The position numbers and the translations under genes are program-made. Source: Bacteroidales bacterium (lineage in GTDB: Bacteria > Bacteroidota > Bacteroidia > Bacteroidales > P3). Taken from it: a DNA stretch of 64,000 nt. Shown here piece by piece: positions 20,882 through 52,896 of the stretch. The DNA lies in the NCBI GenBank assembly GCA_024400415.1, contig JAKSMS010000002.1, forward strand, positions 5,679 through 69,678, given 5' to 3'. Each line of letters begins with the position of its first letter. Position 1 is the stretch's first letter. The notes under the pieces were generated by a model. The model did not search any database and was not told where the DNA came from. It was given only the letters and a program-made list of their open reading frames with translations.

Positions 20882-20907
20882 AATATATGTTTTTTTTTAT
20901 TATTGGC

Positions 20908-23352
20908 TTATAATTCGGCGGTGAGTTTGATATTGATTTGTCGACCGGTGAGGTAGTTGGGCACGGCGTGGTATTGGTTCTCGATGTCGGCCACCCAAAG
21001 GTAGGACACGGCGTTGTGGTAGTCGAAGAGGTTAAACACCTCCACGCCCAACATGAGGTCGGAGATATGGCGGAATATCTTCCAATGCTGGCAGCGTTGG
21101 AGTTTGGAGAGGTGGATGGTGTTGCCCCAGTCGATGCGGTAGTAGGCGGGCAGGCGTGTGAGGTTGCGTGCGCCGGTGGAGGAATGGCGCAGCGTGGGTA
21201 GTCCGTCGGAGGCGATGAGGGTGAGGTTCATGCGCCAGTAGGGCACGTCGGGGATGTAGTCTTGCAGGAAGAGCTTGAAGCTGAAGCGCTGGTCGGTAGG
21301 GCGGTCTATCCATCCGCGGTTGTCGTTGAGGTAGTCCTCTTGGGCCTTCATCAGGCTGAGCGACGCCCAGGATTCGAGTCCGTCGACAATCTCGCCGTTG
21401 AGGCGGAGGCTGACGCCGGCGGCATAGCCCACAGCGTCGTTGTCGGCGTCGTAGCGTATGCGCATGTTGTCTACCGTGTACGTGATCAGGTTGGTGATGT
21501 ATTTGCCGTAGATGTCGGCGGTGAGCTTGAAAGGCTTGTCGAGGATGAGGAAGTTGTAGTCCATGGTGCCGGTTGCCTGATAGGAGTGCTGCGGCAGGAT
21601 GTGGGTATTGAGCGCGCCGTCAGGATATTGGAACTCGCGGTAGAAAGGGGCCTGATGATAGATGCCGGCGGCGAGGCGGAAAAGGATGTCGCGCTGCCAG
21701 TTGGGCTTGGCGCTGGCGCTGATGCGTGGCGAGAGCAGGAGTCCGTTGTTGTTGGCAGAGTCCAGCTCGGGGAATGCTATCGAGTAGTATTGGCCGCGGA
21801 GTCCGACGAGGAAGGAGAGGTCGGTATTGGAGCGGGTGTTGTAGTTGATTTCGCGCTGGAGGTAGGCGGAGAGGCGCTGTATGGCCACGAGGTTGGAGGC
21901 GTGGCAGAACGACTGCAGGATAGGGGGCATGGGCATGTTGGCGGGGTCGCCCCAAGAGGGCAGCTGGGTGGGCACGCTGTAGCCGGCGGAGTCGATGAGG
22001 GTCCACTCGCGGATGGCTGCGCTGATGCGGTCGTATTGGTACTTGAGTCCGAGGTTCCAAGCGCCGAGTGCGGCGAAGCGTGTGGCCTTGAGTTCGGAAC
22101 TGGCAATGGCGGTGTGGACGGCATTGCGGGCATGCTCCAAGAAGGTGCCGACGCCGCGGTCGAAGGTGGTGTCGGTGAGCGAGCCTACGTTGACTTGCCG
22201 CAGCCAGTATTGGCACTGAATGTCGTAGTTCTCCTGTTCGCCGGAGCTTTGGAGGGAGTTGATCCAGCGTATCTGCCAGTCGTCGGAAGGGCGGTAGTCG
22301 AAGGTGAGGGCGTGGAGGAGCGTGCTATAGCTGTCGATTTCCTGTCCGTCGAAGTAGCAGTCGAGCCGCAGCTGCTCCATCATATTGCCGAAATCGGTGG
22401 AGCGGTCAGTGGGCACCAGGCCGTAGTCGTTGTGGGTATACACTCCGAGGTAGGAGGCGGAGAGCTGGTCGGAGAAGCGATAGGAGAGTATGGCCTGAAG
22501 GTCGGAATAGTCGGAGGTGTAGTCGCCCTTGGTGTCCAACGAACGGAATACGTACTGGTTGGTGTGCTTCCTGAAGGCAGCGGAGTAGGTGAACCGGTCG
22601 CCCAAGAGTCCCTGTACGGAAGCGGTGGCACCGAGCAGCGAGAGGGAGCCTTTGGCATGGAACTCGGTTGGGCGGCTATAGGTGATGTCGAGCACCGAGG
22701 ACATGCGGTCGCCATACGAGCAGTCGAAGCCGCCGGGGGAGAAGAGTATGTGGTCCACCAAGTCGGGACTGATAATGGAGAGTCCCTCCTGCTGGCTGCT
22801 GCGAATGAGCATGGGACGGTATATTTCCACGTCGTTGATATAGACGAGGTTTTCGTCGAAGGAGCCGCCGCGAACGTTGTACTGCGATGACAGCTCGTTG
22901 TTGGAGGCCACGTCGGGAAGCGTCTTGAGCAGGCTTTCCACGCCGCCAGTGGGGCCTACGGCGCTTTCAAGCTTCTCGACAGAGATTTGGGTGAACGTGG
23001 TCTTGCGGCTCTTCTCGCTAGAGACTTCAACCTCGCTGAGCATCGTGCCTTTGCGCATCACCACGTCGAGGGTAAGGGTGGCGCCAGCGGGGATGCGGAG
23101 TCGGAATTCCTGAGGCTGATATCCGGTGATGGAGAATCGCACAGTGATAGAGTCGGCAGTAGGCACGGAGAGCGCATAGTTGCCGAGTCGGTCGGTGATG
23201 TCGCCAGTAGGGTGGTCCAGGCTGGTGATGCCGACATTCACATATTCGAGCGGATGCTCTGAGTCGGACACGCGGCCCACCAGGCGGCCTTGGGCGGCCG
23301 ACGAAAAGGGTAGTAGGAGCAGTAAAAGGATAGCGAGTATGTGGAATCTCAT
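20908..23352 (-). CDS. TonB-dependent receptor-like outer-membrane protein with carboxypeptidase-regulatory-like N-domain
   Basis: Signal peptide MRFHILAILLLLLLPFSSAAQG, a CarbopepD_reg-like segment, a plug-like region, a long beta-barrel and a C-terminal aromatic-rich end. The track start at 23361 is a TTG; I use the ATG at 23352. Confidence 0.8.
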   Translation of the reverse strand: MRFHILAILLLLLLPFSSAAQGRLVGRVSDSEHPLEYVNVGITSLDHPTGDITDRLGNYALSVPTADSITVRFSITGYQPQEFRLRIPAGATLTLDVVMRKGTMLSEVEVSSEKSRKTTFTQISVEKLESAVGPTGGVESLLKTLPDVASNNELSSQYNVRGGSFDENLVYINDVEIYRPMLIRSSQQEGLSIISPDLVDHILFSPGGFDCSYGDRMSSVLDITYSRPTEFHAKGSLSLLGATASVQGLLGDRFTYSAAFRKHTNQYVFRSLDTKGDYTSDYSDLQAILSYRFSDQLSASYLGVYTHNDYGLVPTDRSTDFGNMMEQLRLDCYFDGQEIDSYSTLLHALTFDYRPSDDWQIRWINSLQSSGEQENYDIQCQYWLRQVNVGSLTDTTFDRGVGTFLEHARNAVHTAIASSELKATRFAALGAWNLGLKYQYDRISAAIREWTLIDSAGYSVPTQLPSWGDPANMPMPPILQSFCHASNLVAIQRLSAYLQREINYNTRSNTDLSFLVGLRGQYYSIAFPELDSANNNGLLLSPRISASAKPNWQRDILFRLAAGIYHQAPFYREFQYPDGALNTHILPQHSYQATGTMDYNFLILDKPFKLTADIYGKYITNLITYTVDNMRIRYDADNDAVGYAAGVSLRLNGEIVDGLESWASLSLMKAQEDYLNDNRGWIDRPTDQRFSFKLFLQDYIPDVPYWRMNLTLIASDGLPTLRHSSTGARNLTRLPAYYRIDWGNTIHLSKLQRCQHWKIFRHISDLMLGVEVFNLFDYHNAVSYLWVADIENQYHAVPNYLTGRQINIKLTAEL

Positions 23353-25129: not shown

Positions 25130-25229
25130 GTCAACGGACGAATGCCGAGCGTCCCGACCACCAGTTCCCTCCCTAGGATGAGAGTGGGAAAAACAACCTA
25201 TCTAAATAGTGTATAGATCAATATTATAT

Positions 25230-25336
25230 GGTGCATATGTGCTATATATGTACTATATATGTGCTATATTTCTGCTATCTCTATAGAATAGGACATATAT
25301 AGCACAAATATAGCAGATATATAGCATATATGCACC
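25230..25336. repeat. 107-bp imperfect palindrome built from 11-bp GCTATATATGT-type iterons (copy A)
   Basis: GGTGCATATGTGCTATATATGTACTATATATGTGCTATATTTCTGCTATCTCTATAG | AATAGGACATATATAGCACAAATATAGCAGATATATAGCATATATGCACC. The arms are near reverse complements of each other. Confidence 0.9.
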
Positions 25337-25545
25337 AGTTATAAAGCAGATAGGGCGGCAGTAGGACATTGGATTGTGGGAATCGGTGGATGTGCAGTAT
25401 TCGGCTGATTATAGCTGCCGGCAGCTATGGGTGTGCTGCTTGGCGGGCAGGGGAGCGGTTCTCGCGGCAACAGTCTGAGAGCGGCCGCAATGGGAGGTTG
25501 GCTGCTTGTGCCTATTGGGCATGAATTATACAAGATTAGCGATTG

Positions 25546-44504: not shown

Positions 44505-44529
44505 GCCCCTTATCTGTATCCAATCTGGC

Positions 44530-44633
44530 TTATATGTGCTATATTTGTGCTATATATGTGCTATATATGTCCTATTCCTATAGGATAGCAGAAATATAGC
44601 ACATATATAGCACAAATATAGCACATATGCGCC
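44530..44633. repeat. ~104-bp iteron palindrome, copy B (best alignment is to the reverse complement of copy A)
   Basis: ATATGTGCTATATTTGTGCTATATATGTGCTATATATGTCCTATTCCTATAGGATAGCAGAAATATAGCACATATATAGCACAAATATAGCACATATGCGCC. By eye about 90 percent identical to the reverse complement of copy A. Confidence 0.9.
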
Positions 44634-44798: not shown

Positions 44799-46697
44799 GT
44801 GCAATACTCTCTTTTAGAACACATTGAATCTCCAGCCGACCTCAAATCGCTTTCGATTGAGGACCTTAAGGCACTCTCTGGCGAACTGCGTCAGTATATC
44901 ATCTCTACCCTTAGCTCCCATCCGGGCCACTTGGCATCGGGCTTGGGCGTGGTGGAACTCACCGTGGCGCTGCATGCTGTGTTCAATACTCCCGACGATA
45001 AGCTTGTTTGGGATGTGGGCCATCAGGCCTATGCCCATAAGATCTTGACGGGCAGAAGGAACCGCTTCTCTACCATACGTACCTATGGCGGTTTGAGCGG
45101 ATTTCCCAAGATGACTGAAAGCGAGTATGATGCATTCGGAACCGGCCATAGCAGCACCTCTATCAGCGCTGCCCTTGGCATGGCCACCGCCTCCAAGCTG
45201 CAGGGCAATGCCTCTCGGCAGCATATCGCCGTGATCGGCGACGGCTCTATGACCGGCGGCGAGGCCTTCGAGGCCCTCAACAACGCCGGCGTCAGCAAGG
45301 CCAACATTCTGGTGATCCTCAACGACAACGGCATCTCTATCGACAAGTCGGTGGGCGGCCTCAGCCGCTACCTTACCAAGGTGACCGCCTCGCGCCGATA
45401 CAACGACCTCAAAAACAAGGTGTGGGACACCCTCGACGGCGACGAGCAGAACCGCTCGAGAGGCAAAGAGAAAGGACTGAACTTCTTTCAGAAGATGGCC
45501 TATTCCACCAAGTCGGCACTCCTGGGACACCAGAACAACCTGTTCGAGTCGTTGGGATTCCGCTACTTCGGCCCCATCGACGGCCACAATATGGAAGACC
45601 TCCTCGAAGTGCTCAACAAGCTGCGTAAGCTCAAGGGCCCCAAGCTGCTCCACATCGTCACCACCAAGGGCAAGGGCCTGCCGGCAGCAGAAGAAAACCC
45701 CACCGTTTTCCATGCGCCAGGCAAGTTCGACGCCGAGACCGGCGAGCGAATTAAAACGACCGCTTCAAACATGCCGCCCAAGTACCAGGATGTGTTTGGC
45801 CGCACCATCATAGAGCTGGCCGAGAAGAATCCTAAGATAGTGGGAATCACCCCCGCCATGCCAACAGGCTGTTCGCTCAACATGATGATGGCCGAAATGC
45901 CCGACCGCGCCTTCGACGTGGGCATCGCCGAGCAGCATGCCGTGACCTTCGCAGCCGGACTGGCGGCACAGGGACAGCTTCCCTTCTGCAATATCTACAG
46001 TTCGTTCATGCAGCGGGCCTACGACCAGGTGATTCACGACGTGGCGCTGCAGAATCTCGACTTCGTGCTCTGCCTCGACCGCGGCGGACTCGTGGGCGAC
46101 GACGGCCCTACACACCACGGCGCCTTCGACATGGCCTGCCTGCGACTGGTGCCCAACCTCACCATCATGGCGCCCATGAACGAGCACGAGCTGCGCAATA
46201 TGATGTACACCGCCCAGCTGCCCGGCAAGGGTCCGGTGGTGATCCGCTATCCGCGCGGAAACGGCGTGCTCACCGACTGGCACAACGAGATGCTGGAGCT
46301 CCCAATCGGCAAGGGCAGAATGCTCAAAGAGGGTAGGGAAGTGGCCATTGTAAGCATCGGACACATAGGCAATTCTGCGATGGAAGCAGCAGCAACGCTC
46401 GAAGCCGATGGCATCTCGGTGGGAGTGTACGACATGCGCTTTGTAAAGCCGTTAGACACGGCCCTTCTTGACCAGATAGCCGAACGCTACGACCGGGTGA
46501 TTACCCTCGAAGACGGCTGCCTGGAAGGCGGCTTCGGCAGCGCCGTGCTGGAATACTACTCCGCCAAAGGCGGCAAGACCCCAGCAGTGAAGCGCTTAGG
46601 CATCCCCGACCGCTTCATCACCCACGGCACCATCCCCCAGCTCCAGCAGGAATGCGGCATAGACACGACCTCCATCATCGCCGCCGTGAAAGCGTGA
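44799..46697 (+). CDS. dxs: 1-deoxy-D-xylulose-5-phosphate synthase
   Basis: LASGLGVVELTVALH, VWDVGHQAYAHKILTGR, GDGSMTGGEAFEALNNAG, transketolase-like C-terminal half. GTG start. Confidence 0.93.
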   Translation: MQYSLLEHIESPADLKSLSIEDLKALSGELRQYIISTLSSHPGHLASGLGVVELTVALHAVFNTPDDKLVWDVGHQAYAHKILTGRRNRFSTIRTYGGLSGFPKMTESEYDAFGTGHSSTSISAALGMATASKLQGNASRQHIAVIGDGSMTGGEAFEALNNAGVSKANILVILNDNGISIDKSVGGLSRYLTKVTASRRYNDLKNKVWDTLDGDEQNRSRGKEKGLNFFQKMAYSTKSALLGHQNNLFESLGFRYFGPIDGHNMEDLLEVLNKLRKLKGPKLLHIVTTKGKGLPAAEENPTVFHAPGKFDAETGERIKTTASNMPPKYQDVFGRTIIELAEKNPKIVGITPAMPTGCSLNMMMAEMPDRAFDVGIAEQHAVTFAAGLAAQGQLPFCNIYSSFMQRAYDQVIHDVALQNLDFVLCLDRGGLVGDDGPTHHGAFDMACLRLVPNLTIMAPMNEHELRNMMYTAQLPGKGPVVIRYPRGNGVLTDWHNEMLELPIGKGRMLKEGREVAIVSIGHIGNSAMEAAATLEADGISVGVYDMRFVKPLDTALLDQIAERYDRVITLEDGCLEGGFGSAVLEYYSAKGGKTPAVKRLGIPDRFITHGTIPQLQQECGIDTTSIIAAVKA

Positions 46698-46799
46698 CAG
46701 GCTTTATTAGTCACAGATCTACGCCAGCGCGCCCTCAGAGCCTACAACGCCCTAAAAGAAGAAAACCAGAATCTGCGCCAAGAGATTAATCGCTCAAGC

Positions 46800-46878
46800 A
46801 TAGGACTCCATAGGGGAAATAGGACAAAGTAGGAACCAATGACACATATCCTATCAAAGGTCCTATTGTCAATCCTAC
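46800..46878. repeat. phased TAGGA iteron array forming an imperfect palindrome
   Basis: TAGGACTCCA TAGGGGAAA TAGGACAAAG TAGGAACCAA (starts 46801, 46811, 46820, 46830), then inverted CCTA copies at 46850, 46862 and 46873. AATAGGAC (46818-25) faces GTCCTATT (46860-67). Confidence 0.7.
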
Positions 46879-46938
46879 ACTTCCTGCCCTCGTGAAATAT
46901 TGCCATCATGAAAATTTGCCCGTTCGGGAAATTATTCG

Positions 46939-46946
46939 TAATTTTG
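46939..46946 (+). promoter_or_regulatory. -7 box TAATTTTG with -33 TTTG at 46915-46918
   Basis: Canonical Bacteroidetes promoter geometry with a 20-nt spacer, upstream of ORF 47031. Confidence 0.55.
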
Positions 46947-47030
46947 CAGATGGTTTTAAAATGAAGTTTTTGTAAACAAAGCTGCATTTGTAACTTGAAT
47001 TCAACTTCGATGCACAAATAATTATATGCT

Positions 47031-47483
47031 ATGACCGATAGAGAAATCCAGCAGCAGATGGACGCAATGCGGGCCTTGGCTGAACCCATGCCTCAGGTCG
47101 GCATCTTTTGGTTCGACCTCAGCGATCACACTTTCTTTGGTGTCCGTAAGCAGGAGATTACTCCCAAGCAAGTGGAGGAAGCTGCCGAAAAAGGCCTTCC
47201 GTTCATCAACTACCCACACCTTCATCGTCAGGTATGGGCAAAGGAATATTTCCGTGCGCAGGCCACAGGAGAGCAGACCAAATTCGTAGGCGACTACACC
47301 CAGATACCAAGGGGGCGAGTTGCATGGAACATCAACAAGTTCATCGTCTTCGTAGGCCAATGGGCCAAACCCATCGAAGCAGAACTTTCCGAGATGATAG
47401 AAAATGAATTTGCCCTTCCATACTTCGAATTCGTTTACGACATCCATTGGGACCTCGGCCACGGCTGGAGTGGCGACCTATAA
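47031..47483 (+). CDS. hypothetical protein (150 aa), family not recognised
   Basis: Clean ORF behind a canonical promoter. Conserved-looking blocks are GIFWFD, PRGRVAWN and FVYDIHWDLGHGW. No signal peptide or TM segment. Confidence 0.6.
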   Translation: MTDREIQQQMDAMRALAEPMPQVGIFWFDLSDHTFFGVRKQEITPKQVEEAAEKGLPFINYPHLHRQVWAKEYFRAQATGEQTKFVGDYTQIPRGRVAWNINKFIVFVGQWAKPIEAELSEMIENEFALPYFEFVYDIHWDLGHGWSGDL

Positions 47484-47665
47484 GACTCGAATTGGCGAGA
47501 AAGGTGAAGGTTACGCTGGTTCGCCAACCGCTGGAAGAGCCGCCTCTTCTACCAAGAAAACCTCCCCGCCACCTTCCTCATCCAACTCTTGAGCCACATA
47601 GTGAAACCCTTAGGCCGCGCGGAGTGATGTGCTCGAAAAAGATTGCCCATTCAAGAAATTTTTCG

Positions 47666-47673
47666 TAATTTTG
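47666..47673 (+). promoter_or_regulatory. -7 box TAATTTTG of the R-M operon
   Basis: TAnnTTTG match 70 nt upstream of the ATG at 47743. It is embedded in a duplicate of the 46911-46950 promoter module. Confidence 0.55.
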
Positions 47674-47742
47674 CAGTTTGAATTTGTATTAGTATAGAAA
47701 TGAAAATTGCAGTTATAGCTTGAAATCAACACCTTATTAATC

Positions 47743-48459
47743 ATGACAGATCAGCAAAAACAGGCCATCATAGTAAGTGGAAAGGAATATTTCCGCACAA
47801 CCATTATTCCAAATCATTTAAAGAACCTCCAGAAGTTGAAGCTTTCGGAGTTCAATATCAATCCGTTCCTCATCAATTACCTTGCAGCATTCCTTTGTGG
47901 CGATACTGAGCCACATTCACTTGCAAAGGCTCTTGTTTATCCACGTATTCTTGGCACCAGTTTGAACACAAGTTTCGGTCAGAATATCCAGGTATTCATT
48001 TCAAGTCTTGAAGAGATCACAGGTGGGGCATCTGGGGTTGAGGGTATTGATATAGAATTCGTTGATGCTATCGATGGCAGACGTAAATATTGCCAATGCA
48101 AGGCTGGCCCACAGACTATCAATAAGGAGGACATTGCAACAATCCTTGGTCATTTCAAGTATTTGATGAACAAGTCAAGACTTGATAGAATGGGTTTGCA
48201 GTTTGATGATTTGATTGTAGGCGTTCTATATGGCGAACGTGATAACCTATCAGCAAATTACAAAGCAATTGATGCTCATTACCCAGTGTTGTGCGGTGCT
48301 GATTTTTGGGAAAGACTGACCGGTGACAAAGAGTTCTATAATCGCTTAGCCAAGGCTTTCGGAGAAGTTGTAGAGGAAGATGGCATAGATGGCAGTACCC
48401 TCATTCTTAAGAAGGTTGACGAGATTGCTCAAGAAATAATCGATAAAGGTGGTTTGTAA
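47743..48459 (+). CDS. type II restriction endonuclease (TdeIII/Eco47II-like suspected)
   Basis: GIDIEFVDAIDGRRKYCQCKAGPQTINKED resembles the ID-x-E...K-x-G-P-x-T-x-N core of that REase group. It lies 2 nt upstream of a C5 MTase. The family call is from memory. Confidence 0.6.
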   Translation: MTDQQKQAIIVSGKEYFRTTIIPNHLKNLQKLKLSEFNINPFLINYLAAFLCGDTEPHSLAKALVYPRILGTSLNTSFGQNIQVFISSLEEITGGASGVEGIDIEFVDAIDGRRKYCQCKAGPQTINKEDIATILGHFKYLMNKSRLDRMGLQFDDLIVGVLYGERDNLSANYKAIDAHYPVLCGADFWERLTGDKEFYNRLAKAFGEVVEEDGIDGSTLILKKVDEIAQEIIDKGGL

Positions 48460-48461
48460 CA

Positions 48462-50279
48462 ATGAGATTTATTTCCGAAAATAACTTTGCGGCTTTGATG
48501 GGTACTTCAAACTCAACGGCTCAGAAATGGGCTGAGAGTGGAGTGTACCCCTCCCATGTTGTCAATGGCATAAGAGGCTTTGACATGGAGGAACTGACAG
48601 GAATTTCCGAAGTCAGTGAGATGATTAATGGTAAATGGGACGAAGAATCTCATGTCGAACCGCTTCGCCAATATACCTCTGTTGAACTCTTTGCGGGTGG
48701 TGGCGGCTTGGCACTTGGCATGTCACTTGCAGGTTTTCATCATGTTCTCCTCAACGAGTTTGATACTTCTGCCTGTAAGACGCTTCGCTCCAATCGCCCT
48801 GATTGGAATGTTATTGAGGGCGATGTTCGACATATTGACTTTACTCCTCTTCGTGACAAGGTAGACTTCCTCTCGGGAGGTTTCCCCTGCCAGGCGTTTT
48901 CTTACGCTGGTAAGCAGGGTGGCTTCAATGATACTCGTGGAACATTGTTCTTCGAGTTGGCACGTGCAGTAACAGAGATTCGACCAAAGGTCTTCATGGG
49001 CGAAAACGTTAAGGGGTTGACTTCTCACGAAGATGGTAAAACCTTCGGTACCATATGCAACGTCATTAGAGAACTCGGTTATACTCTGGTTGAACCTCGT
49101 GTGCTGAAAGCAATCATGTATCAGGTACCTCAGAAGCGTGAACGACTTATCTTGATAGCCATTCGCAACGATATTGCCGAACGTGTGCAGTTTCATTGGC
49201 CTTCGCCTTACGAACGTGTACTCACCCTTCGCGATGCGTTCTACAAGAGTATTATATTTGACAAGAATGTTCCCAAGTCAGAAGGCGTTAAATACCCGGA
49301 AAAGAAACAACGCGTATTGGAATTGGTTCCTCAAGGTGGTGACTGGCGCGACCTTCCCGAAGATGTGGCGCGTGAATACATGGGTGGCAGTTGGTTGCTT
49401 GGCGGTGGTAAGACGGGTATGGCTCGTCGTTTGTCGCTTGACGAACCCTCACTTACCCTCACTTGCGCTCCTGCACAAAAGCAGACAGAAAGATGCCATC
49501 CTCTTGAAACTCGGCCGCTTACTGTCCGTGAGTATGCACGCATCCAAACCTTCCCCGATTATTGGAAGTTCCAGGGAACCATGAGTGCAAAGTACAAACA
49601 AATTGGTAATGCTGTTCCTGTGAACCTTGCCTGGGCAATAGGGCGCTCGCTGATTCGTTTGTTTAATGATATTCAAACTGAGGTTCCCACCGAAACGCAG
49701 GATTGTGCATCTGCCGTTCGTGAGATTATGAGCAAGCAGTCTCAGTTGGTAGTGGTAAAAGACAAGAAGACACAGACGTCTGAGATAGAGACTGTCAGCA
49801 CACAACTCAACTTCTTTGACCTTTTTGAACAGTATGGAGAGAACTCGATTGTAGAAAATACGATGGTTCGGGAAGGTTTTGCAGAGTATAGGGTTAACAC
49901 AAATAATAATCAGTTGCCTCTCGACCTCACCAAGAAACTCCTTATCTGCAATGTTAAGAAGGACAATTGGGAACAGTACCTTGATGGTACAGCCAAGATT
50001 TACTATACAGGCAAGAAGTTCCCTACCACTGTTGCACTCAACAAGCTCTACTACTTCATGCCGTACCTCTCAGGCAAAGGCATCCGCGACCTATATTACA
50101 TCAAGATTGCACGTCTTGGCTACCGCAAAGAAGGTCAAAAGAACGAGGATCCAAACGACCTCCGCCTGGTTTTTGAAATAGAACGTGTTGGTCAACTCTT
50201 TGATGACTATAAGAAAGTGAAACTCGAAATCTGGCGCACGTTTACTGACACTACGATGGGGGAAATGATCAATCTTTAG
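48462..50279 (+). CDS. DNA (cytosine-5)-methyltransferase with N-terminal HTH-like module and ~190-aa C-terminal extension
   Basis: Motif I ELFAGGGGLALG, motif IV GGFPCQAFS, motif VI ENVKGL, motif VIII QKRERL, motif X QIGNAVPVNLA. The N-terminal 60 aa look like a MerR/excisionase-type HTH. Residues ~410-605 are unassigned. Confidence 0.9.
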   Translation: MRFISENNFAALMGTSNSTAQKWAESGVYPSHVVNGIRGFDMEELTGISEVSEMINGKWDEESHVEPLRQYTSVELFAGGGGLALGMSLAGFHHVLLNEFDTSACKTLRSNRPDWNVIEGDVRHIDFTPLRDKVDFLSGGFPCQAFSYAGKQGGFNDTRGTLFFELARAVTEIRPKVFMGENVKGLTSHEDGKTFGTICNVIRELGYTLVEPRVLKAIMYQVPQKRERLILIAIRNDIAERVQFHWPSPYERVLTLRDAFYKSIIFDKNVPKSEGVKYPEKKQRVLELVPQGGDWRDLPEDVAREYMGGSWLLGGGKTGMARRLSLDEPSLTLTCAPAQKQTERCHPLETRPLTVREYARIQTFPDYWKFQGTMSAKYKQIGNAVPVNLAWAIGRSLIRLFNDIQTEVPTETQDCASAVREIMSKQSQLVVVKDKKTQTSEIETVSTQLNFFDLFEQYGENSIVENTMVREGFAEYRVNTNNNQLPLDLTKKLLICNVKKDNWEQYLDGTAKIYYTGKKFPTTVALNKLYYFMPYLSGKGIRDLYYIKIARLGYRKEGQKNEDPNDLRLVFEIERVGQLFDDYKKVKLEIWRTFTDTTMGEMINL

Positions 50280-50401
50280 CCTGACCCATAAATGCGATAC
50301 TCTGATAAGGTAATTGATGGCCTGAAAAATATCCAGAAGGAGGACGTGTGTTTCTTGCTGGACGTGATTTGATTAGATATGGAATGTAATTCATTGTATA
50401 A

Positions 50402-51331
50402 ATGGGACAAAATATAGGTATTTATCCACCTAAAGTGTTTATTTCGTATACTTATGACTCTCCAGAGCATGAGAGGTGGGTAGAGAAACTTGCACGTAAT
50501 TTGTGCAATCCTGGTGGTGTTGATGTCATCTTTGACAAATGGGATGCTCGACTTGGAGACAATCTCCCTTTTTTCATGGAGCAAGGATTGTCAAATGCTC
50601 ACGTAGTATTATGTATTTGTTCGGACAAATACGTGCAAAAAGCAAATGAAGGTCTCGGAGGAGCTGGTTATGAAAAGAAAATCATGACTCAATACCTTAT
50701 GGAAAATGCTAATAAGGAGTTTGTAATTCCTATCATGGTAAACAATGTAAATAAGAAGCTCCCAACTTTTCTATTCGGTGATAAATATATTGAATTTCAC
50801 CCAAATGACTATTATGGCAGTTTTAGGGATTTACTTTATAGAATTCATGGTAAGGACAAGGAACTCAAACCTGCTATTTCTGCCAATCCATTTTCAGACA
50901 AGAGTTTCCTAAATGAGTTAGAAGAAAAGATTAACTTGTCTCGAGTGGAGTTCCAATCACAAGAAACGTCAGGCTTTGTAACATTTGATTATAAGCGTAA
51001 TAGTGGCAATTATAGTATAGGCACAAATGATTACCATTTTGATCTTTCCTTTTCTGAATGTGGATATAAGTCTATCTATGTCTATCGTGATCGTGTAAAA
51101 TATGTAGGTATTGCTAATAATAAAGCTTTTCCAACAACTGATGAAATCAAAAATGATATTGATTTCACTTCTAGATGTCGCCAAGTTTCAGTCGGTGATG
51201 TTTTTGTAGTTGTTAATAAACATGGGAAGGTTGCTGCTGTAAAGATAGTTGATATTACCAAAAAGAATGATAATTCTCAAACAGTAATATTTGAGTACCA
51301 TATATATGACGATATGACCTTGAATAATTAG
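50402..51331 (+). CDS. SEFIR/TIR-domain protein with uncharacterised C-terminal domain
   Basis: KVFISYTYDSPEHERWVEKLARNLCNPGGVDVIFDKWDARLGDNLPFFMEQGL...VVLCICSDKYVQKANEGLGGAGYEKKIM is the bacterial SEFIR/TIR pattern. The last ~150 aa are beta-rich and unassigned. Confidence 0.8.
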   Translation: MGQNIGIYPPKVFISYTYDSPEHERWVEKLARNLCNPGGVDVIFDKWDARLGDNLPFFMEQGLSNAHVVLCICSDKYVQKANEGLGGAGYEKKIMTQYLMENANKEFVIPIMVNNVNKKLPTFLFGDKYIEFHPNDYYGSFRDLLYRIHGKDKELKPAISANPFSDKSFLNELEEKINLSRVEFQSQETSGFVTFDYKRNSGNYSIGTNDYHFDLSFSECGYKSIYVYRDRVKYVGIANNKAFPTTDEIKNDIDFTSRCRQVSVGDVFVVVNKHGKVAAVKIVDITKKNDNSQTVIFEYHIYDDMTLNN

Positions 51332-51491
51332 AGAGTTCTTTCTGACAAGATTGTTGGCTGAATAGATGAACCTACTGATTTTTAGAGGAAATTCCGATTG
51401 TTAATGTGTTTGTTGTCCCCCAAATTAATCCCATAAGCTCTATTGGGAACATCAGATTACTTTGGTGGTGCCTGTTGATTTTTAGACAAAA

Positions 51492-51813
51492 TTATCCATC
51501 GTCAATTGTCAATCGCCAATCATCCCAGCCCGTTGATGTACGCCATGATGGAGTCGGCGTTTTCTTCGGTGAGTCGGATGTTTTCTTCTTTAGGTCGTTG
51601 ACCTCGTGGCTCGGGGCGTCGATCATCATGCGCTGCACGAGGCTCTAGTGGATGCCTTCGGTGAGGTAGTCGTAGGTCAAGCCGAAATGCTCGCAGCAGA
51701 TCCCATAGCCCCTAGGAAACCTGCTCCTCCACCTCCGCTTCAACGGAGAAGTCGAACCCCTCGTTGATGATGCGAGAAAGCTCGCTTCGCTCCGCGTTTA
51801 ATTCAAAATTCAT
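51492..51813 (-). pseudogene. decayed small ORF (in-frame stop plus frame changes)
   Basis: From the ATG at 51813: MNFELNAERSELSRIINEGFDFSVEAEVEEQVS-stop. Coding-like sequence then continues in other frames (GYGICCEHFGLTYDYLTEGIH-stop-SLVQRMMIDAPSHEV..., ...IRLTEENADSIMAYINGLG-stop). Confidence 0.4.
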
Positions 51814-51836
51814 AATTCAAAGTTGGTTTTGTTCGC

Positions 51837-52262
51837 TCAAGCAATTTTGAACTTCTCATTTTGAATTTGACAAAATTGTGCATTATTTGGCTTTGCCTCA
51901 TGAGGGGTCTTCACTCCGGCCTCAAAAGTGAGCTTTTGGACACTCTGTTTCACTCCGTTGTCAATCTCAATCACTTTGGGTGTTTTTAAATGGGTGTCAA
52001 ATACCTTCCTCATCCAGCTCTGGAGCCACATAGTAAGGCCACTCGGCCACGCGGAGTAGAAAAAACTCAGTTTGACGATGTTGGGCCTTTCGAAGAAGGC
52101 ATGGCGCGTGTTGATATTGGCGGCAGATGGGTTCACACCTGACGAAACCGATTGATGTCTTTTGTCGTGGTAGGATGCGAGATTGGATGTACTAAAGCGA
52201 TAGATTATGGTGTTGATGCTGTCCGCTACATGCTTAACTACGCTTGACTGAGGTAAGAGCAT
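51837..52262 (-). CDS. hypothetical protein (141 aa), possibly a gene fragment
   Basis: Only an ORF with no recognisable motif. It is the last gene of the islet and no canonical promoter is visible. Confidence 0.35.
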   Translation of the reverse strand: MLLPQSSVVKHVADSINTIIYRFSTSNLASYHDKRHQSVSSGVNPSAANINTRHAFFERPNIVKLSFFYSAWPSGLTMWLQSWMRKVFDTHLKTPKVIEIDNGVKQSVQKLTFEAGVKTPHEAKPNNAQFCQIQNEKFKIA

Positions 52263-52488
52263 CGGTTGGTTGGCTCGAAAATAACGGTTTTCGATGAATT
52301 CTGGCGGATGTGTATCTTGTTGCAGAATTGTGTCGAAAGTTGAGTTTTTGTGTGTTTTTTTCTGGTTTATTTATAAAAAGTTTGTATATTTGTATGTTGA
52401 TAATGACATAGGGTCGGCGTGTAAGAGCGTGGCCTTTATGCCGTTAGATAAATTTTGAATAATAATAACTAATATAAAAAACACAAAA

Positions 52489-52896
52489 ATGACTCCTTCA
52501 CACATCGAACACATCGGTATCGCAGTCACCAACCTTGACGAGGCTATCCGCTATTGGGAAGACGTTATGGGTTTGAAATGCTATGCCATTGAGGAAGTAA
52601 CCGACCAGAAAGTTAAGACCGCATTCCTGAAGTGCGGCGAAGTGAAAATCGAACTGCTCGAGCCTACCTGCCCTGAGAGCACCATCGCTGCCTTCATCGA
52701 GAAGAACGGCGGCAAGGGCGGCATGCACCACATGGCCTTCGCAGTTGAGAACACCGACCAGGCATTGAAAGATGCTGAGGAGAAGGGCGTGAAGCTGATC
52801 GACAAGCAGAGCCGCGGCGGCGCCGAGGGCCTGAAGATCGGTTTCCTCCATCCTAAGTCTACCATGGGTGTTTTAACCGAACTCTGCTGCAAGTGA
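52489..52896 (+). CDS. mce: methylmalonyl-CoA epimerase (VOC family)
   Basis: HIEHIGIAVTNLDEAIRYW, GGMHHMAF, typical 135-aa size, located upstream of mmd genes. Confidence 0.88.
   Translation: MTPSHIEHIGIAVTNLDEAIRYWEDVMGLKCYAIEEVTDQKVKTAFLKCGEVKIELLEPTCPESTIAAFIEKNGGKGGMHHMAFAVENTDQALKDAEEKGVKLIDKQSRGGAEGLKIGFLHPKSTMGVLTELCCK

What the first reader, a model, noticed from the sequence alone, without database searches (positions are those of the whole stretch)
46698..52480. AT-rich ~5.6-kb accessory islet wedged between dxs and the methylmalonyl-CoA decarboxylase operon
dxs (ends 46697) and mce (starts 52489) are GC-rich core genes with strong third-position GC bias. The DNA between them is visibly AT-richer. 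It carries only accessory-type content: an unknown 150-aa ORF, a restriction endonuclease, a C5 methyltransferase, a SEFIR/TIR protein, a frameshifted small ORF and a fragment-like ORF. No integrase, transposase or tRNA is present, so the insertion mechanism is not obvious. The left junction carries an unusual iteron palindrome, reported separately.
Basis: partly seen in the sequence, partly recalled or inferred. Interest (0 to 1): 0.7.

Follow-up and report, generated by a model that had tools for sequence, protein, structure and literature searches.

The report
Swappable phage-defence islet between core genes
The AT-rich stretch between dxs and the methylmalonyl-CoA decarboxylase operon is a real, horizontally acquired islet carrying a restriction-modification system and a bSEFIR anti-phage gene; it sits in a chromosomal slot where near-identical strains carry quite different cargo, which is a known kind of defence hotspot and not a new kind of element.

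Summary
Window 46698-52488 has 43.1% GC against 54.2% elsewhere. It is the lowest-GC 5.8-kb stretch and the strongest tetranucleotide outlier in the 64 kb.

- a conserved orphan ORF150;
- an EcoO109I-family restriction enzyme;
- a C5 methyltransferase with all catalytic motifs and an extra C-terminal module;
- a single-gene bSEFIR defence protein;
- about 1 kb of decayed DNA.

No integrase, transposase or tRNA was found.

Comparison with contigs encoding an identical Mce protein shows a strain-variable slot. At least six different cargo sets occupy it, including McrBC-WYL-HIRAN, GmrSD, LRR/RHS and unknowns. One strain is about 98% identical in both flanks yet has wholly different cargo. In related species, dxs and mce are usually only 100-600 bp apart.

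The truly variable part is about 46958-52315. The left 260 bp and the right 173 bp are conserved frame. The left frame includes a Bacteroidetes-type promoter block, and every cargo array starts immediately after it. The same block bounds a second hotspot, where the same arrays appear in other strains.

The most likely turnover mechanism is recombination in the mosaic flanks and at the promoter block. That part is inferred, not shown.

Verdict: a new member of a known kind (core-flanked defence hotspot), of moderate interest.

The parts
44799..46697 (+). dxs, the left core flank. It is itself a recombination mosaic between strains.
   Evidence: Pfam DXP_synthase_N E 6.9e-115. Identity to other strains per 150-bp window ranges from 62% to 100%.
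46698..46957 (.). Conserved left frame of the hotspot. It contains the 3' remnant (46718-46830) of a 248-aa four-helix-bundle/coiled-coil gene that is intact in L001/L003, the ATAGGAC iteron palindrome (~46800-46880), and the promoter block.
   Evidence: Contiguous 89-93% homology with L002 and L004 up to 46948/46957. L001 and L003 match 46722-47003 after their extra 248-aa gene. The iteron region does not fold better than shuffles (z -0.24).
46915..46949 (+). Promoter block copy a: TTTG-N20-TAATTTTG, a Bacteroidetes -33/-7 type promoter. Cargo-specific sequence begins right after GCAG(ATGGTTTT).
   Evidence: It is one of only 6 full consensus matches in 64 kb (0.66 expected). The 22-nt core occurs twice in the window and 0 times in shuffles. 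It aligns with copies at h1 and h2 of other strains.
47031..47483 (+). ORF150: a conserved orphan protein with near-native codon usage. It is the first cargo gene.
   Evidence: 727 homologues; the 120 listed are >=67% identical; no Pfam domain. AF2 pLDDT 81, no PDB fold match. The promoter plus gene is 90% identical to L002 2904-2317 at the second hotspot. GC3 0.61.
47571..47625 (.). D2 repeat, copy 1. This 55-nt direct repeat lies just upstream of promoter copy b.
   Evidence: 84% identical to 52003-52057.
47642..47676 (+). Promoter block copy b, upstream of the R-M operon. The -7 box is intact; the -33 reads ATTG.
47743..48459 (+). Type II restriction endonuclease of the EcoO109I family.
   Evidence: PF14511 E 1.7e-42, covering 3-196 of 198 profile positions. 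GC3 0.40.
48462..50279 (+). C5 cytosine DNA methyltransferase, 605 aa. The catalytic domain spans aa 72-398. A C-terminal ~140-aa accessory module lies at ~49860-50279.
   Evidence: PF00145 E 2.9e-81 and PADLOC MTase_II E 2.7e-110. Motifs FAGGGG, PCQ, ENV, QKRER and GNAVP are visible in the translation. The C-terminal module has 615 homologues, either free-standing or fused to three MTase classes. It gives weak YTH/ASCH-like fold matches.
50402..51331 (+). bSEFIR single-gene anti-phage protein: an N-terminal SEFIR/TIR domain (aa 10-160) and a ~140-aa C-terminal domain.
   Evidence: PADLOC bSEFIR E 4.8e-61; Pfam TIR_2 7.2e-19 and SEFIR 8.7e-15. Best PDB match is the 'Sefir domain protein' entry 5Y8E, 7.6e-21. 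Roughly three dozen of the 150 listed 50%-identity clusters align end to end. GC3 0.28.
51500..51800 (-). Frameshifted small ORF relic of about 98 codons when reconstructed. Its identity is unknown.
   Evidence: Three-frame reading. No significant Pfam hit (best E 0.042, below the cutoff) and no NCBIfam hit for the reconstruction.
51837..52315 (.). Decayed right-end DNA. It holds the spurious 141-aa minus-strand ORF, D2 copy 2 (52003-52057) and a WG_beta_rep gene relic on the plus strand (~52068-52142).
   Evidence: ORF141 has no homologues apart from its own exact copy. PF14903 scores 27.1 bits (cutoff 25.6) for the ORF 51990-52142. L010 shares 52225 onward.
52316..52488 (.). Conserved right frame: the mce upstream region.
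   Evidence: Homology with all other-cargo loci starts at 52315-52326.
52489..52896 (+). mce (methylmalonyl-CoA epimerase-like glyoxalase-fold protein), the right core flank and first gene of the decarboxylase operon.
   Evidence: Pfam Glyoxalase_4 E 1.9e-24. An identical protein occurs on 23 contigs that carry varied upstream cargo.

Best explanation
The interval is the occupied state of a strain-variable chromosomal hotspot, a replacement-type flexible island, between dxs and the mce-mmdA operon of a Bacteroidales bacterium (source assembly GCA_024500545.1).

Frame and cargo. A conserved frame brackets a slot whose cargo differs from strain to strain. On the left the frame is dxs plus ~260 bp of spacer ending in a strong Bacteroidetes-type promoter. 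On the right it is the 173-bp mce upstream region. All called cargo genes point the same way as the promoter.

Cargo in this strain. It is a mosaic of at least three compositional layers:
- a near-native orphan gene, ORF150;
- a type II restriction-modification pair with its own copy of the promoter block: an EcoO109I-family endonuclease and a C5 methyltransferase carrying a PUA-like accessory module;
- a very AT-rich single-gene bSEFIR system;
- about 1 kb of decayed remnants of earlier cargo.

Function (inferred from the families). The R-M pair cuts unmethylated incoming DNA. bSEFIR depletes NAD+ once infection is sensed.

Turnover (inferred). Cargo is exchanged by recombination between strains in the mosaic core flanks, with the ~50-bp promoter block serving as the recurrent left crossover point. 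The same block lets arrays move between this slot and a second slot (h2). No dedicated recombinase is encoded in the islet.
For: Foreign composition is shown. Defence identities are shown. bSEFIR has experimental precedent as a single-gene, NAD+-depleting defence system (10.1101/2022.05.11.491447 and 10.1101/2024.02.11.579819).

Variable slot. Contigs with identical Mce carry ORF150-RM-bSEFIR (window, L011, L105), 248aa+454aa (L001/L003), LRR_5+RHS+53aa (L002), McrBC-WYL-HIRAN-249-93 (L004), GmrSD-206-WYL-HIRAN-247-93 (L005, L007-L009), and an unknown 546-aa protein followed by WYL-HIRAN (L006). L001 is 98.4% identical on the left and 97-99% on the right, yet shares none of the cargo.

Related species. 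In 23 related-species loci the interval is 103-615 bp in 14, about 1 kb in 1, 1.5-1.8 kb in 7 (five of these with a detected LRR_5-type gene; L021 from the genome scan is a further such case) and 5.3 kb in 1.

Boundaries. They are sharp and common to all strains, at 46948-46957 and 52315-52326.

Recombination in the flanks. dxs identity is patchy (62-100% per 150 bp). The ranking of strains also reverses between dxs and the spacer: L001 goes from 98% to 83%, and L002 from 88% to 95%.

Shared promoter block and shared arrays at h1 and h2. ORF150 is 90% identical, the McrBC array 94-96% and GmrSD 99.6%. The block variants follow location, not cargo.

Orientation. All called cargo genes are co-oriented with the promoter at both slots.

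Mobility genes. No integrase, transposase or tRNA was found. There is no plasmid, phage or viral-contig match beyond generic MTase similarity.
Against: The exchange mechanism is not observed directly.

The identical 3' part of the promoter block is only about 23 nt, which is short for RecA-dependent recombination. No shared sequence was found at the right ends of arrays that sit at different slots.

Not all cargo is defensive: LRR_5/RHS, a 454-aa unknown and the ORF150 family (which also occurs in capsule-type loci). 'Defence hotspot' therefore describes an enrichment, not an exclusive content.

Defence activity of this R-M pair and this bSEFIR is untested. Depletion of candidate R-M sites in the window is uninformative (RGGNCCY ratio 1.12).

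The sample of strains is small: about 12 contigs, several of them truncated.
Confidence: 0.72

Rival explanations
1. Promoter-anchored cassette platform. The ~50-bp promoter block would be a site-specific recombination site, integron-like. A recombinase encoded elsewhere in the genome would insert and exchange transcription-unit cassettes there, at two or more chromosomal slots (h1, h2).
For: Every array at both slots begins within a few bases of the same point after TTCGTAATTTTGCAG(ATGGTTTT). Three different arrays are found at h1 in some strains and at h2 in others. A second block copy sits between ORF150 and the R-M operon in the window. All called cargo genes are co-oriented with the block. 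The block occurs only at these slots in the 64-kb window.
Against: No integrase lies in or next to the islet. No attC-like conserved element was found at cassette 3' ends. The right junctions look illegitimate: a duplicated HIRAN 5' end in L004 and the decayed D2/WG relics here. A sharp common boundary is also expected for any replacement island whose flank ends in a promoter, as in capsule or O-antigen loci. Spacer conservation could reflect a shared operator. In more distant species only the extended -7 box recurs.
Confidence: 0.12
2. Decayed integrative element. The segment from promoter copy b through R-M, bSEFIR and the relics would be the remnant of a small integrative or transposable element. 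It would have inserted into a resident WG-repeat gene and later lost its integrase. The 55-nt D2 direct repeats would be its att or target-duplication scars.
For: D2 copies (84% identical) bracket exactly this segment. Copy 2 continues into a WG_beta_rep coding relic. The segment is compositionally distinct from ORF150. Pseudogene-like DNA lies at its right end.
Against: No integrase or transposase fragment is detectable, even at relaxed thresholds. There are no terminal inverted repeats. The repeats are only 84% identical and could simply be two units of a repetitive WG gene. R-M and bSEFIR differ strongly from each other in GC3 (0.40-0.52 against 0.28), which argues for separate arrivals. 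No similar element exists in the plasmid, phage or viral collections.
Confidence: 0.12
3. Not an acquired islet. The interval would be ancestral, merely AT-rich, fast-evolving native DNA.
For: ORF150 has near-native GC3 (0.61), and the frame DNA is conserved.
Against: There is different cargo in a ~98%-identical strain. The interval is empty in related species. GC3 falls as low as 0.28 against 0.67-0.76 in core genes.
Confidence: 0.02

Closest known systems
Core defence hotspots (cDHS1/cDHS2 of Pseudomonas aeruginosa; Johnson et al. 2023, PMC10250203) and replacement-type flexible genomic islands
   Same: The chromosomal slot is fixed between conserved core genes. Occupancy by R-M and newer defence systems varies strongly among closely related strains. 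GC is lower than in the host. Many instances have no mobility gene. Horizontal exchange through conserved flanks is the proposed mechanism.
   Different: This slot is far smaller: 2.7-7 kb here against a median of 6-26 kb and a maximum of 224 kb. No tRNA or tmRNA lies at the flank. A promoter block forms the left boundary, and all called cargo genes are co-oriented with it. The same block and the same arrays occur at a second slot. The host is a Bacteroidales gut or rumen bacterium. The cargo also includes LRR/RHS-type genes.
bSEFIR single-gene anti-phage system (Millman et al. 2022 preprint, 10.1101/2022.05.11.491447)
   Same: It has an N-terminal SEFIR domain, a one-gene architecture and a defence-island context. 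The PADLOC bSEFIR profile matches at E 4.8e-61. The closest solved structure is the PDB entry deposited as 'Sefir domain protein' (5Y8E).
   Different: It is shorter (309 aa, covering positions 38-252 of a 412-position profile) and has its own ~140-aa C-terminal domain. In Pfam the TIR_2 model scores slightly above SEFIR (68.9 against 55.7 bits). Its activity is untested.
EcoO109I-type type II restriction-modification systems
   Same: The endonuclease matches PF14511 over the full profile. The adjacent C5 methyltransferase has all canonical motifs and starts 3 bp after the endonuclease stop.
   Different: phmmer finds no similarity to any solved structure. The recognition site is unknown. The methyltransferase carries an extra conserved C-terminal module that also occurs with N6/N4 and Eco57I-type methyltransferases.
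Integrons, and promoter-led replacement loci such as capsule or O-antigen gene clusters
   Same: A resident promoter lies at one edge. Downstream cargo is co-oriented and interchangeable, and the conserved boundaries are sharp.
   Different: There is no intI-like integrase and there are no attC sites. Unlike capsule loci, the cargo is a set of unrelated stand-alone systems, not a single pathway.

Membership tests
Core-flanked defence hotspot / replacement flexible island | The same conserved core genes flank the site in all strains. | tested here: met
   dxs lies on the left and mce-mmdA on the right in the window and in L001-L004. Mce is identical on 23 contigs.
Core-flanked defence hotspot / replacement flexible island | Cargo differs among closely related strains and shares no homology between variants. 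| tested here: met
   There are at least six cargo sets. L001 is ~98% identical in both flanks and shares no cargo.
Core-flanked defence hotspot / replacement flexible island | Cargo is enriched in anti-phage systems. | tested here: met
   The cargo includes R-M, bSEFIR, McrBC-like genes (PD-T4-1 N-terminus), WYL, HIRAN (PDC-M03B) and GmrSD/HEC-06. Non-defence cargo also occurs: LRR_5/RHS and unknowns.
Core-flanked defence hotspot / replacement flexible island | Composition deviates from the host genome. | tested here: met
   43.1% against 54.2% GC; top tetranucleotide outlier; GC3 0.28-0.61 against 0.67-0.76.
bSEFIR defence system | An N-terminal SEFIR domain that scores above TIR (the selection rule of Millman et al.). 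| tested here: inconclusive
   The PADLOC bSEFIR HMM scores 205.8 bits. The best PDB hit is a SEFIR domain (7.6e-21) against a TIR protein at 0.0032. However, Pfam hmmscan ranks TIR_2 (68.9 bits) above SEFIR (55.7 bits). The original rule used HHsearch, which was not run.
bSEFIR defence system | A single-gene system located among other defence genes. | tested here: met
   It is a stand-alone gene 122 bp after the R-M operon. Roughly three dozen of the 150 listed 50%-identity clusters align over the full length.
bSEFIR defence system | NAD+ depletion and protection against phage. | not testable with these tools
   This needs infection assays. It is known for the Bacillus homologue.
Type II R-M, EcoO109I family | An endonuclease with the RE_EcoO109I fold/profile. 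| tested here: met
   PF14511 E 1.7e-42, profile positions 3-196 of 198.
Type II R-M, EcoO109I family | An adjacent cognate methyltransferase with intact catalytic motifs. | tested here: met
   PF00145 E 2.9e-81. Motifs I, IV, VI, VIII and X were read in the translation.
Type II R-M, EcoO109I family | Recognition of RGGNCCY. | tested here: inconclusive
   The RGGNCCY observed/expected ratio is 1.12. GGNCC is 0.68, but GATC and CCGG are just as depleted. A methylome is needed.
Integron | An IntI tyrosine recombinase next to the platform promoter. | tested here: not met
   No recombinase domain occurs in any islet ORF or in the called neighbours from dnaN to the decarboxylase operon. The rest of the window was not scanned.
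Integron | attC-type imperfect palindromes at cassette 3' ends. | tested here: not met
   No recurrent inverted repeat was found at cargo ends.
Integrative element (IME/ICE/transposon) | An integrase or transposase, with a tRNA or defined att target and terminal repeats. | tested here: not met
   There is no such gene and no tRNA. The only candidate is the 55-nt, 84%-identical direct repeat D2, which also fits two units of a WG-repeat gene.

The most novel reading that the evidence does not exclude
The ~50-bp promoter block (TTTGCCCRTTCRRGAAAWWWTTCGTAATTTTGCAG-ATGGTTTT) would be more than a promoter. It would be the attachment point of an integrase-less, or trans-served, cassette platform in Bacteroidales. 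Whole transcription units (5'UTR plus defence genes) would be inserted, stacked and moved between at least two chromosomal slots at this site. That would make it a functional analogue of an integron built on a different recombination site.
Probability: 0.12. Interest if true: 0.8.

Novelty: new member of a known kind. Interest (0 to 1): 0.4.

Why it matters
The finding gives a precisely bounded, small defence hotspot in a gut or rumen Bacteroidales lineage. Defence-island organisation is much less charted in this group than in Proteobacteria.

Because the frame is short and conserved, the dxs/mce pair can be used as bait to harvest unknown cargo as candidate defence genes. Examples are the 454-aa, 249-aa, 206-aa and 93-aa proteins and the ORF150 family.

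The promoter block shared by two slots offers a testable handle on how integrase-free hotspots are refilled.

The conserved methyltransferase-associated PUA-like module is a candidate new accessory component of R-M systems.

Tried and rejected
- An exact-protein look-up of dxs found nothing on record. The TetR, bSEFIR and REase look-ups found only the source assembly GCA_024500545.1 (TetR, bSEFIR) and contigs colinear with the window, including REase contig L105 from another sample.
It returned only distant relatives (<=69% identity), so the organism could not be named.
- The strict promoter-block pattern has no exact match in JGI metagenomes.
- I tested whether the right boundary (…CTTGTTGCAGAATT…) is a degenerate copy of the promoter block. 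The local alignment score is within the shuffle range, so the idea was rejected.
- I tested whether the h1/h2 cargo swap is a simple inversion between the inverted promoter copies. It is not consistent with the data: mce stays on the dxs side in both L003 and L004. A different, larger (~21 kb) inversion does distinguish the genome types.
- The iteron palindrome as a single-strand hairpin is not better than shuffles.
- ORF150 gave a confident model but no fold match.
- ORF141 and the reconstructed frameshifted ORF gave no homologues and no significant family match (best Pfam E 0.042, below cutoff).
- Plasmid, phage and viral-contig searches for the islet, bSEFIR and the REase returned only generic C5-MTase similarity.
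- R-M site avoidance is uninformative.
- The L006 546-aa and L001 454-aa cargo proteins have no relative with a solved structure.

Full report
OBSERVATION

The interval 46698-52488 is 43.1% GC against 54.2% for the rest of the window. It is the lowest-GC 5.8-kb stretch of the 64 kb (mean 53.0%, sd 3.2%). It also holds the eight most deviant 3-kb tetranucleotide windows.

Third-position GC separates core from cargo. dxs, mce, mmdA, eamA and dapD have GC3 of 0.67-0.76. ORF150 has 0.61, the endonuclease 0.40, the methyltransferase 0.45-0.52 and bSEFIR 0.28. The islet is therefore real, and it is itself a mosaic of at least three compositional layers.

GENES

All real cargo genes are on the plus strand.
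- ORF150 (47031-47483) has no Pfam, NCBIfam, PHROG or PADLOC hit. It belongs to a family of 727 proteins. The 120 listed homologues are >=67% identical to it, and 59 alignment columns are invariant. The AlphaFold model is confident (pLDDT 81) but has no PDB fold match.
- 47743-48459 is an EcoO109I-family type II endonuclease (PF14511, E 1.7e-42).
- 48462-50279 starts 3 bp after the endonuclease stop. It is a C5 methyltransferase (PF00145, E 2.9e-81). Its translation shows motifs I (FAGGGG), IV (PCQ), VI (ENV), VIII (QKRER) and X (GNAVP).
- 50402-51331 matches the PADLOC bSEFIR model (E 4.8e-61). Its closest solved relative is the PDB entry deposited as 'Sefir domain protein' (5Y8E, 7.6e-21). 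Roughly three dozen of the 150 listed 50%-identity clusters share its full two-domain architecture.

bSEFIR is an experimentally shown single-gene defence system that depletes NAD+ through its N-terminal domain.

Downstream lies about 1 kb of decayed DNA:
- a frameshifted minus-strand ORF without identifiable relatives;
- a 141-aa minus-strand ORF with no homologue among 5.8 billion proteins apart from its own exact copy;
- on the plus strand, a relic of a WG-repeat gene (PF14903, 27.1 bits against a cutoff of 25.6).

There is no tRNA in the whole window. No integrase or transposase domain occurs in any islet ORF on either strand.

IT IS A STRAIN-VARIABLE SLOT

Looking up the exact Mce protein returned contigs that share the flanks but not the cargo:
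- L001/L003: a 248-aa four-helix-bundle/coiled-coil protein and a 454-aa unknown;
- L002: LRR_5, an RHS fragment and a 53-aa ORF;
- L004: a McrB-like ATPase with a PD-T4-1-type N-terminus, McrC, WYL, HIRAN, and 249-aa and 93-aa proteins;
- L005 and L007-L009: GmrSD, a 206-aa protein, then WYL-HIRAN-247-93;
- L006: another, unknown head followed by WYL-HIRAN.

L001 is 98.4% identical to the window over 6.7 kb on the left and 97-99% identical on the right, yet has entirely different cargo.

Outside this lineage, 23 metagenome loci from related species (dxs ~68-71% and Mce 84-93% identical) have dxs directly upstream of mce. The interval is 103-615 bp in 14 of them, 1041 bp in one, and 1.5-1.8 kb in seven. 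Five of those seven have a detected LRR_5-type gene; L021, found separately in the genome scan, is a further such case. One locus has a 5.3-kb interval.

BOUNDARIES AND FRAME

Homology with strains carrying other cargo runs from dxs to 46948-46957 and resumes at 52315-52326. The variable islet is thus about 46958-52315.

The left 260 bp belong to the frame. They contain:
- the 3' remnant of the 248-aa gene that is intact in L001/L003;
- the ATAGGAC iteron palindrome, which starts at that gene's stop codon and does not fold better than shuffles as a single strand;
- a promoter block.

The promoter block (46915-46949) is TTTG-N20-TAATTTTG. This matches the Bacteroidetes -33/-7 promoter consensus as I know it; that consensus is recalled, not tested here. 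It is one of only six such matches in 64 kb, where 0.66 are expected. Its 22-nt core occurs twice in the window, both times in the islet, and never in shuffles. The second copy (47642-47676) precedes the R-M operon.

A SECOND SLOT AND SHARED ARRAYS

In L002 and L003 the same block lies downstream of eamA, in inverted orientation. There it heads another cargo region, h2. Three arrays occur at h1 in some strains and at h2 in others:
- promoter plus ORF150: window 46903-47488 matches L002 2904-2317 at 90%;
- the McrBC-WYL-HIRAN array: L004 h1 matches L003 h2 at 94-96%, with an internal deletion;
- GmrSD: L005 h1 matches L002 h2 at 99.6%.

In each case homology starts at the block. Sequence variants inside the block follow location (h1 GAAATTWTTCG, h2 GAAAAATTTCG) and not cargo. 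The crossover must therefore lie in the identical last ~23 nt.

All called cargo genes at both slots are co-oriented with the block. The window's own genome has nothing at the eamA-side position. A ~21-kb block (eamA to SulP) is inverted between the two genome types, with one breakpoint at that position.

HOW CARGO IS MOST LIKELY EXCHANGED

The flanks are recombination mosaics. dxs identity between strains varies from 62% to 100% per 150-bp window. The strain closest in dxs (L001, 98%) is the most divergent in the spacer (83%), and the reverse holds for L002.

This pattern, the absence of mobility genes and the sharp common boundaries fit the known picture of replacement islands and core defence hotspots. 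In that picture, DNA taken up from other strains recombines through conserved flanks. The promoter block provides an additional short homology, which would explain stacking (two blocks in the window) and transfer between h1 and h2.

Right-hand junctions look illegitimate rather than site-specific. L004 carries a 29-nt duplicate of the HIRAN gene start just before the right frame. The window carries the 55-nt D2 repeat (47571-47625 and 52003-52057, 84% identical), which brackets the R-M/bSEFIR segment and runs into the WG-repeat relic.

What is shown:
- the variability;
- the boundaries;
- the shared block and shared arrays;
- the mosaic flanks.

What is inferred:
- the recombination route;
- the order of events;
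- the defence activity.

RIVALS

A site-specific, integron-like platform acting at the block is not excluded (probability about 0.12). However, no recombinase and no attC-like element were found, and in more distant species only the extended -7 box recurs.

A decayed integrative element bounded by D2 is also possible for the R-M/bSEFIR segment (probability about 0.12). It lacks any integrase trace or terminal inverted repeats, and R-M and bSEFIR differ strongly in composition.

A native-DNA reading is refuted.

COMPARISON AND NOVELTY

The closest known concept is the core defence hotspot / replacement flexible island. The systems inside are members of known families: type II R-M of the EcoO109I family, and bSEFIR. 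Membership of bSEFIR is well supported by PADLOC and PDB. By Pfam hmmscan, however, TIR_2 scores slightly above SEFIR, so the original selection rule is marked inconclusive.

The distinctive traits are:
- the very small size;
- the promoter-led, strictly co-oriented organisation;
- the sharing of the block and of the arrays between two slots;
- the host clade.

I rate it a new member of a known kind, interest 0.4.

LIMITS

The organism could not be named. The source assembly is GCA_024500545.1.

About a dozen contigs, several truncated, support the comparative picture. The far side of h2 was not seen.

Noticed in passing
window 44527-44633 and 25225-25352: There are two copies of a ~110-nt iteron palindrome built from 11-nt units (TATGTGCTATA xN, a centre GTCCTAT…ATAGGA, then the inverse). 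The copy in the TetR-dxs spacer forms a near-perfect hairpin (-66.7 kcal/mol, z = -13). It hits microRNA-hairpin Rfam models on both strands, below their gathering scores. The spacer that holds it is not homologous in L002/L003. The unit ATAGCAC resembles the ATAGGAC unit of the palindrome at 46800-46880, so all three may belong to one repeat family.
   Followed up: partly
window ~49860-50279 (methyltransferase C-terminus); L107 6001-6447: A conserved ~140-aa module has 615 homologues; those listed are 54-91% identical to it. It occurs free-standing or fused to C5 (PF00145), N6/N4 (PF01555) and Eco57I-type (PF22837) methyltransferases. In L107 it is a separate gene overlapping the stop of the methyltransferase of an AccI-type R-M system. 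The AlphaFold model (pLDDT 72) gives weak YTH/ASCH/VcaM4I-reader-like (PUA-like) matches (Foldseek probability up to 0.98, TM ~0.4, E ~0.05). It is a possible modified-base reader accessory to R-M systems.
   Followed up: partly
window 47031-47483; loci L012-L020, L102-L104: The ORF150 family is very conserved but unannotated. It recurs at the edge of variable loci in other Bacteroidales. It is found in or next to capsule-type sugar gene clusters (L102-L104), directly upstream of a WYL protein (L018-L020), and often at contig ends.
   Followed up: partly
window 42641/42651 and beyond 64000; L108 18950-21560: The ~21-kb block from eamA to the SulP transporter is inverted relative to dapD and the 125-aa ORF between the window-type and L002-type genomes. 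In L108 a 32-nt direct repeat carrying CTCCGR iterons with an 11-nt period lies at both ends of the block (2547-2578 and 20885-20916).
   Followed up: partly
window 46718-46830; L001 7372-8118: The DNA just after dxs is the 3' remnant of a 248-aa gene (a 23S_rRNA_IVP/bAvd-like four-helix bundle plus a C-terminal coiled coil). The gene is intact in L001/L003 and carries the same deletion in the window, L002 and L004.
   Followed up: yes
window 44799-46697: dxs, an essential core gene, is a patchwork between strains. The 5' 450 bp are only 63-79% identical to L002/L003, while the middle is 91-97% identical. This indicates frequent homologous recombination in the neighbourhood.
   Followed up: partly
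L115 2225, L142 4736, L148 6076, L153 134: The 14-mer TTCGTAATTTTGCA (an extended -7 box) recurs upstream of mce in four related-species metagenome loci without the rest of the block, where about 0.01 matches are expected. In L142, L148 and L153 it points towards mce and precedes cargo: LRR_5/TPR in L148, and CMD/cupin plus flavodoxin in L142.
   Followed up: partly
whole window: GATC (observed/expected 0.58), CCGG (0.62) and GGNCC (0.68) are all under-represented relative to a Markov expectation. This hints at past or present restriction pressure from several systems.
   Followed up: no
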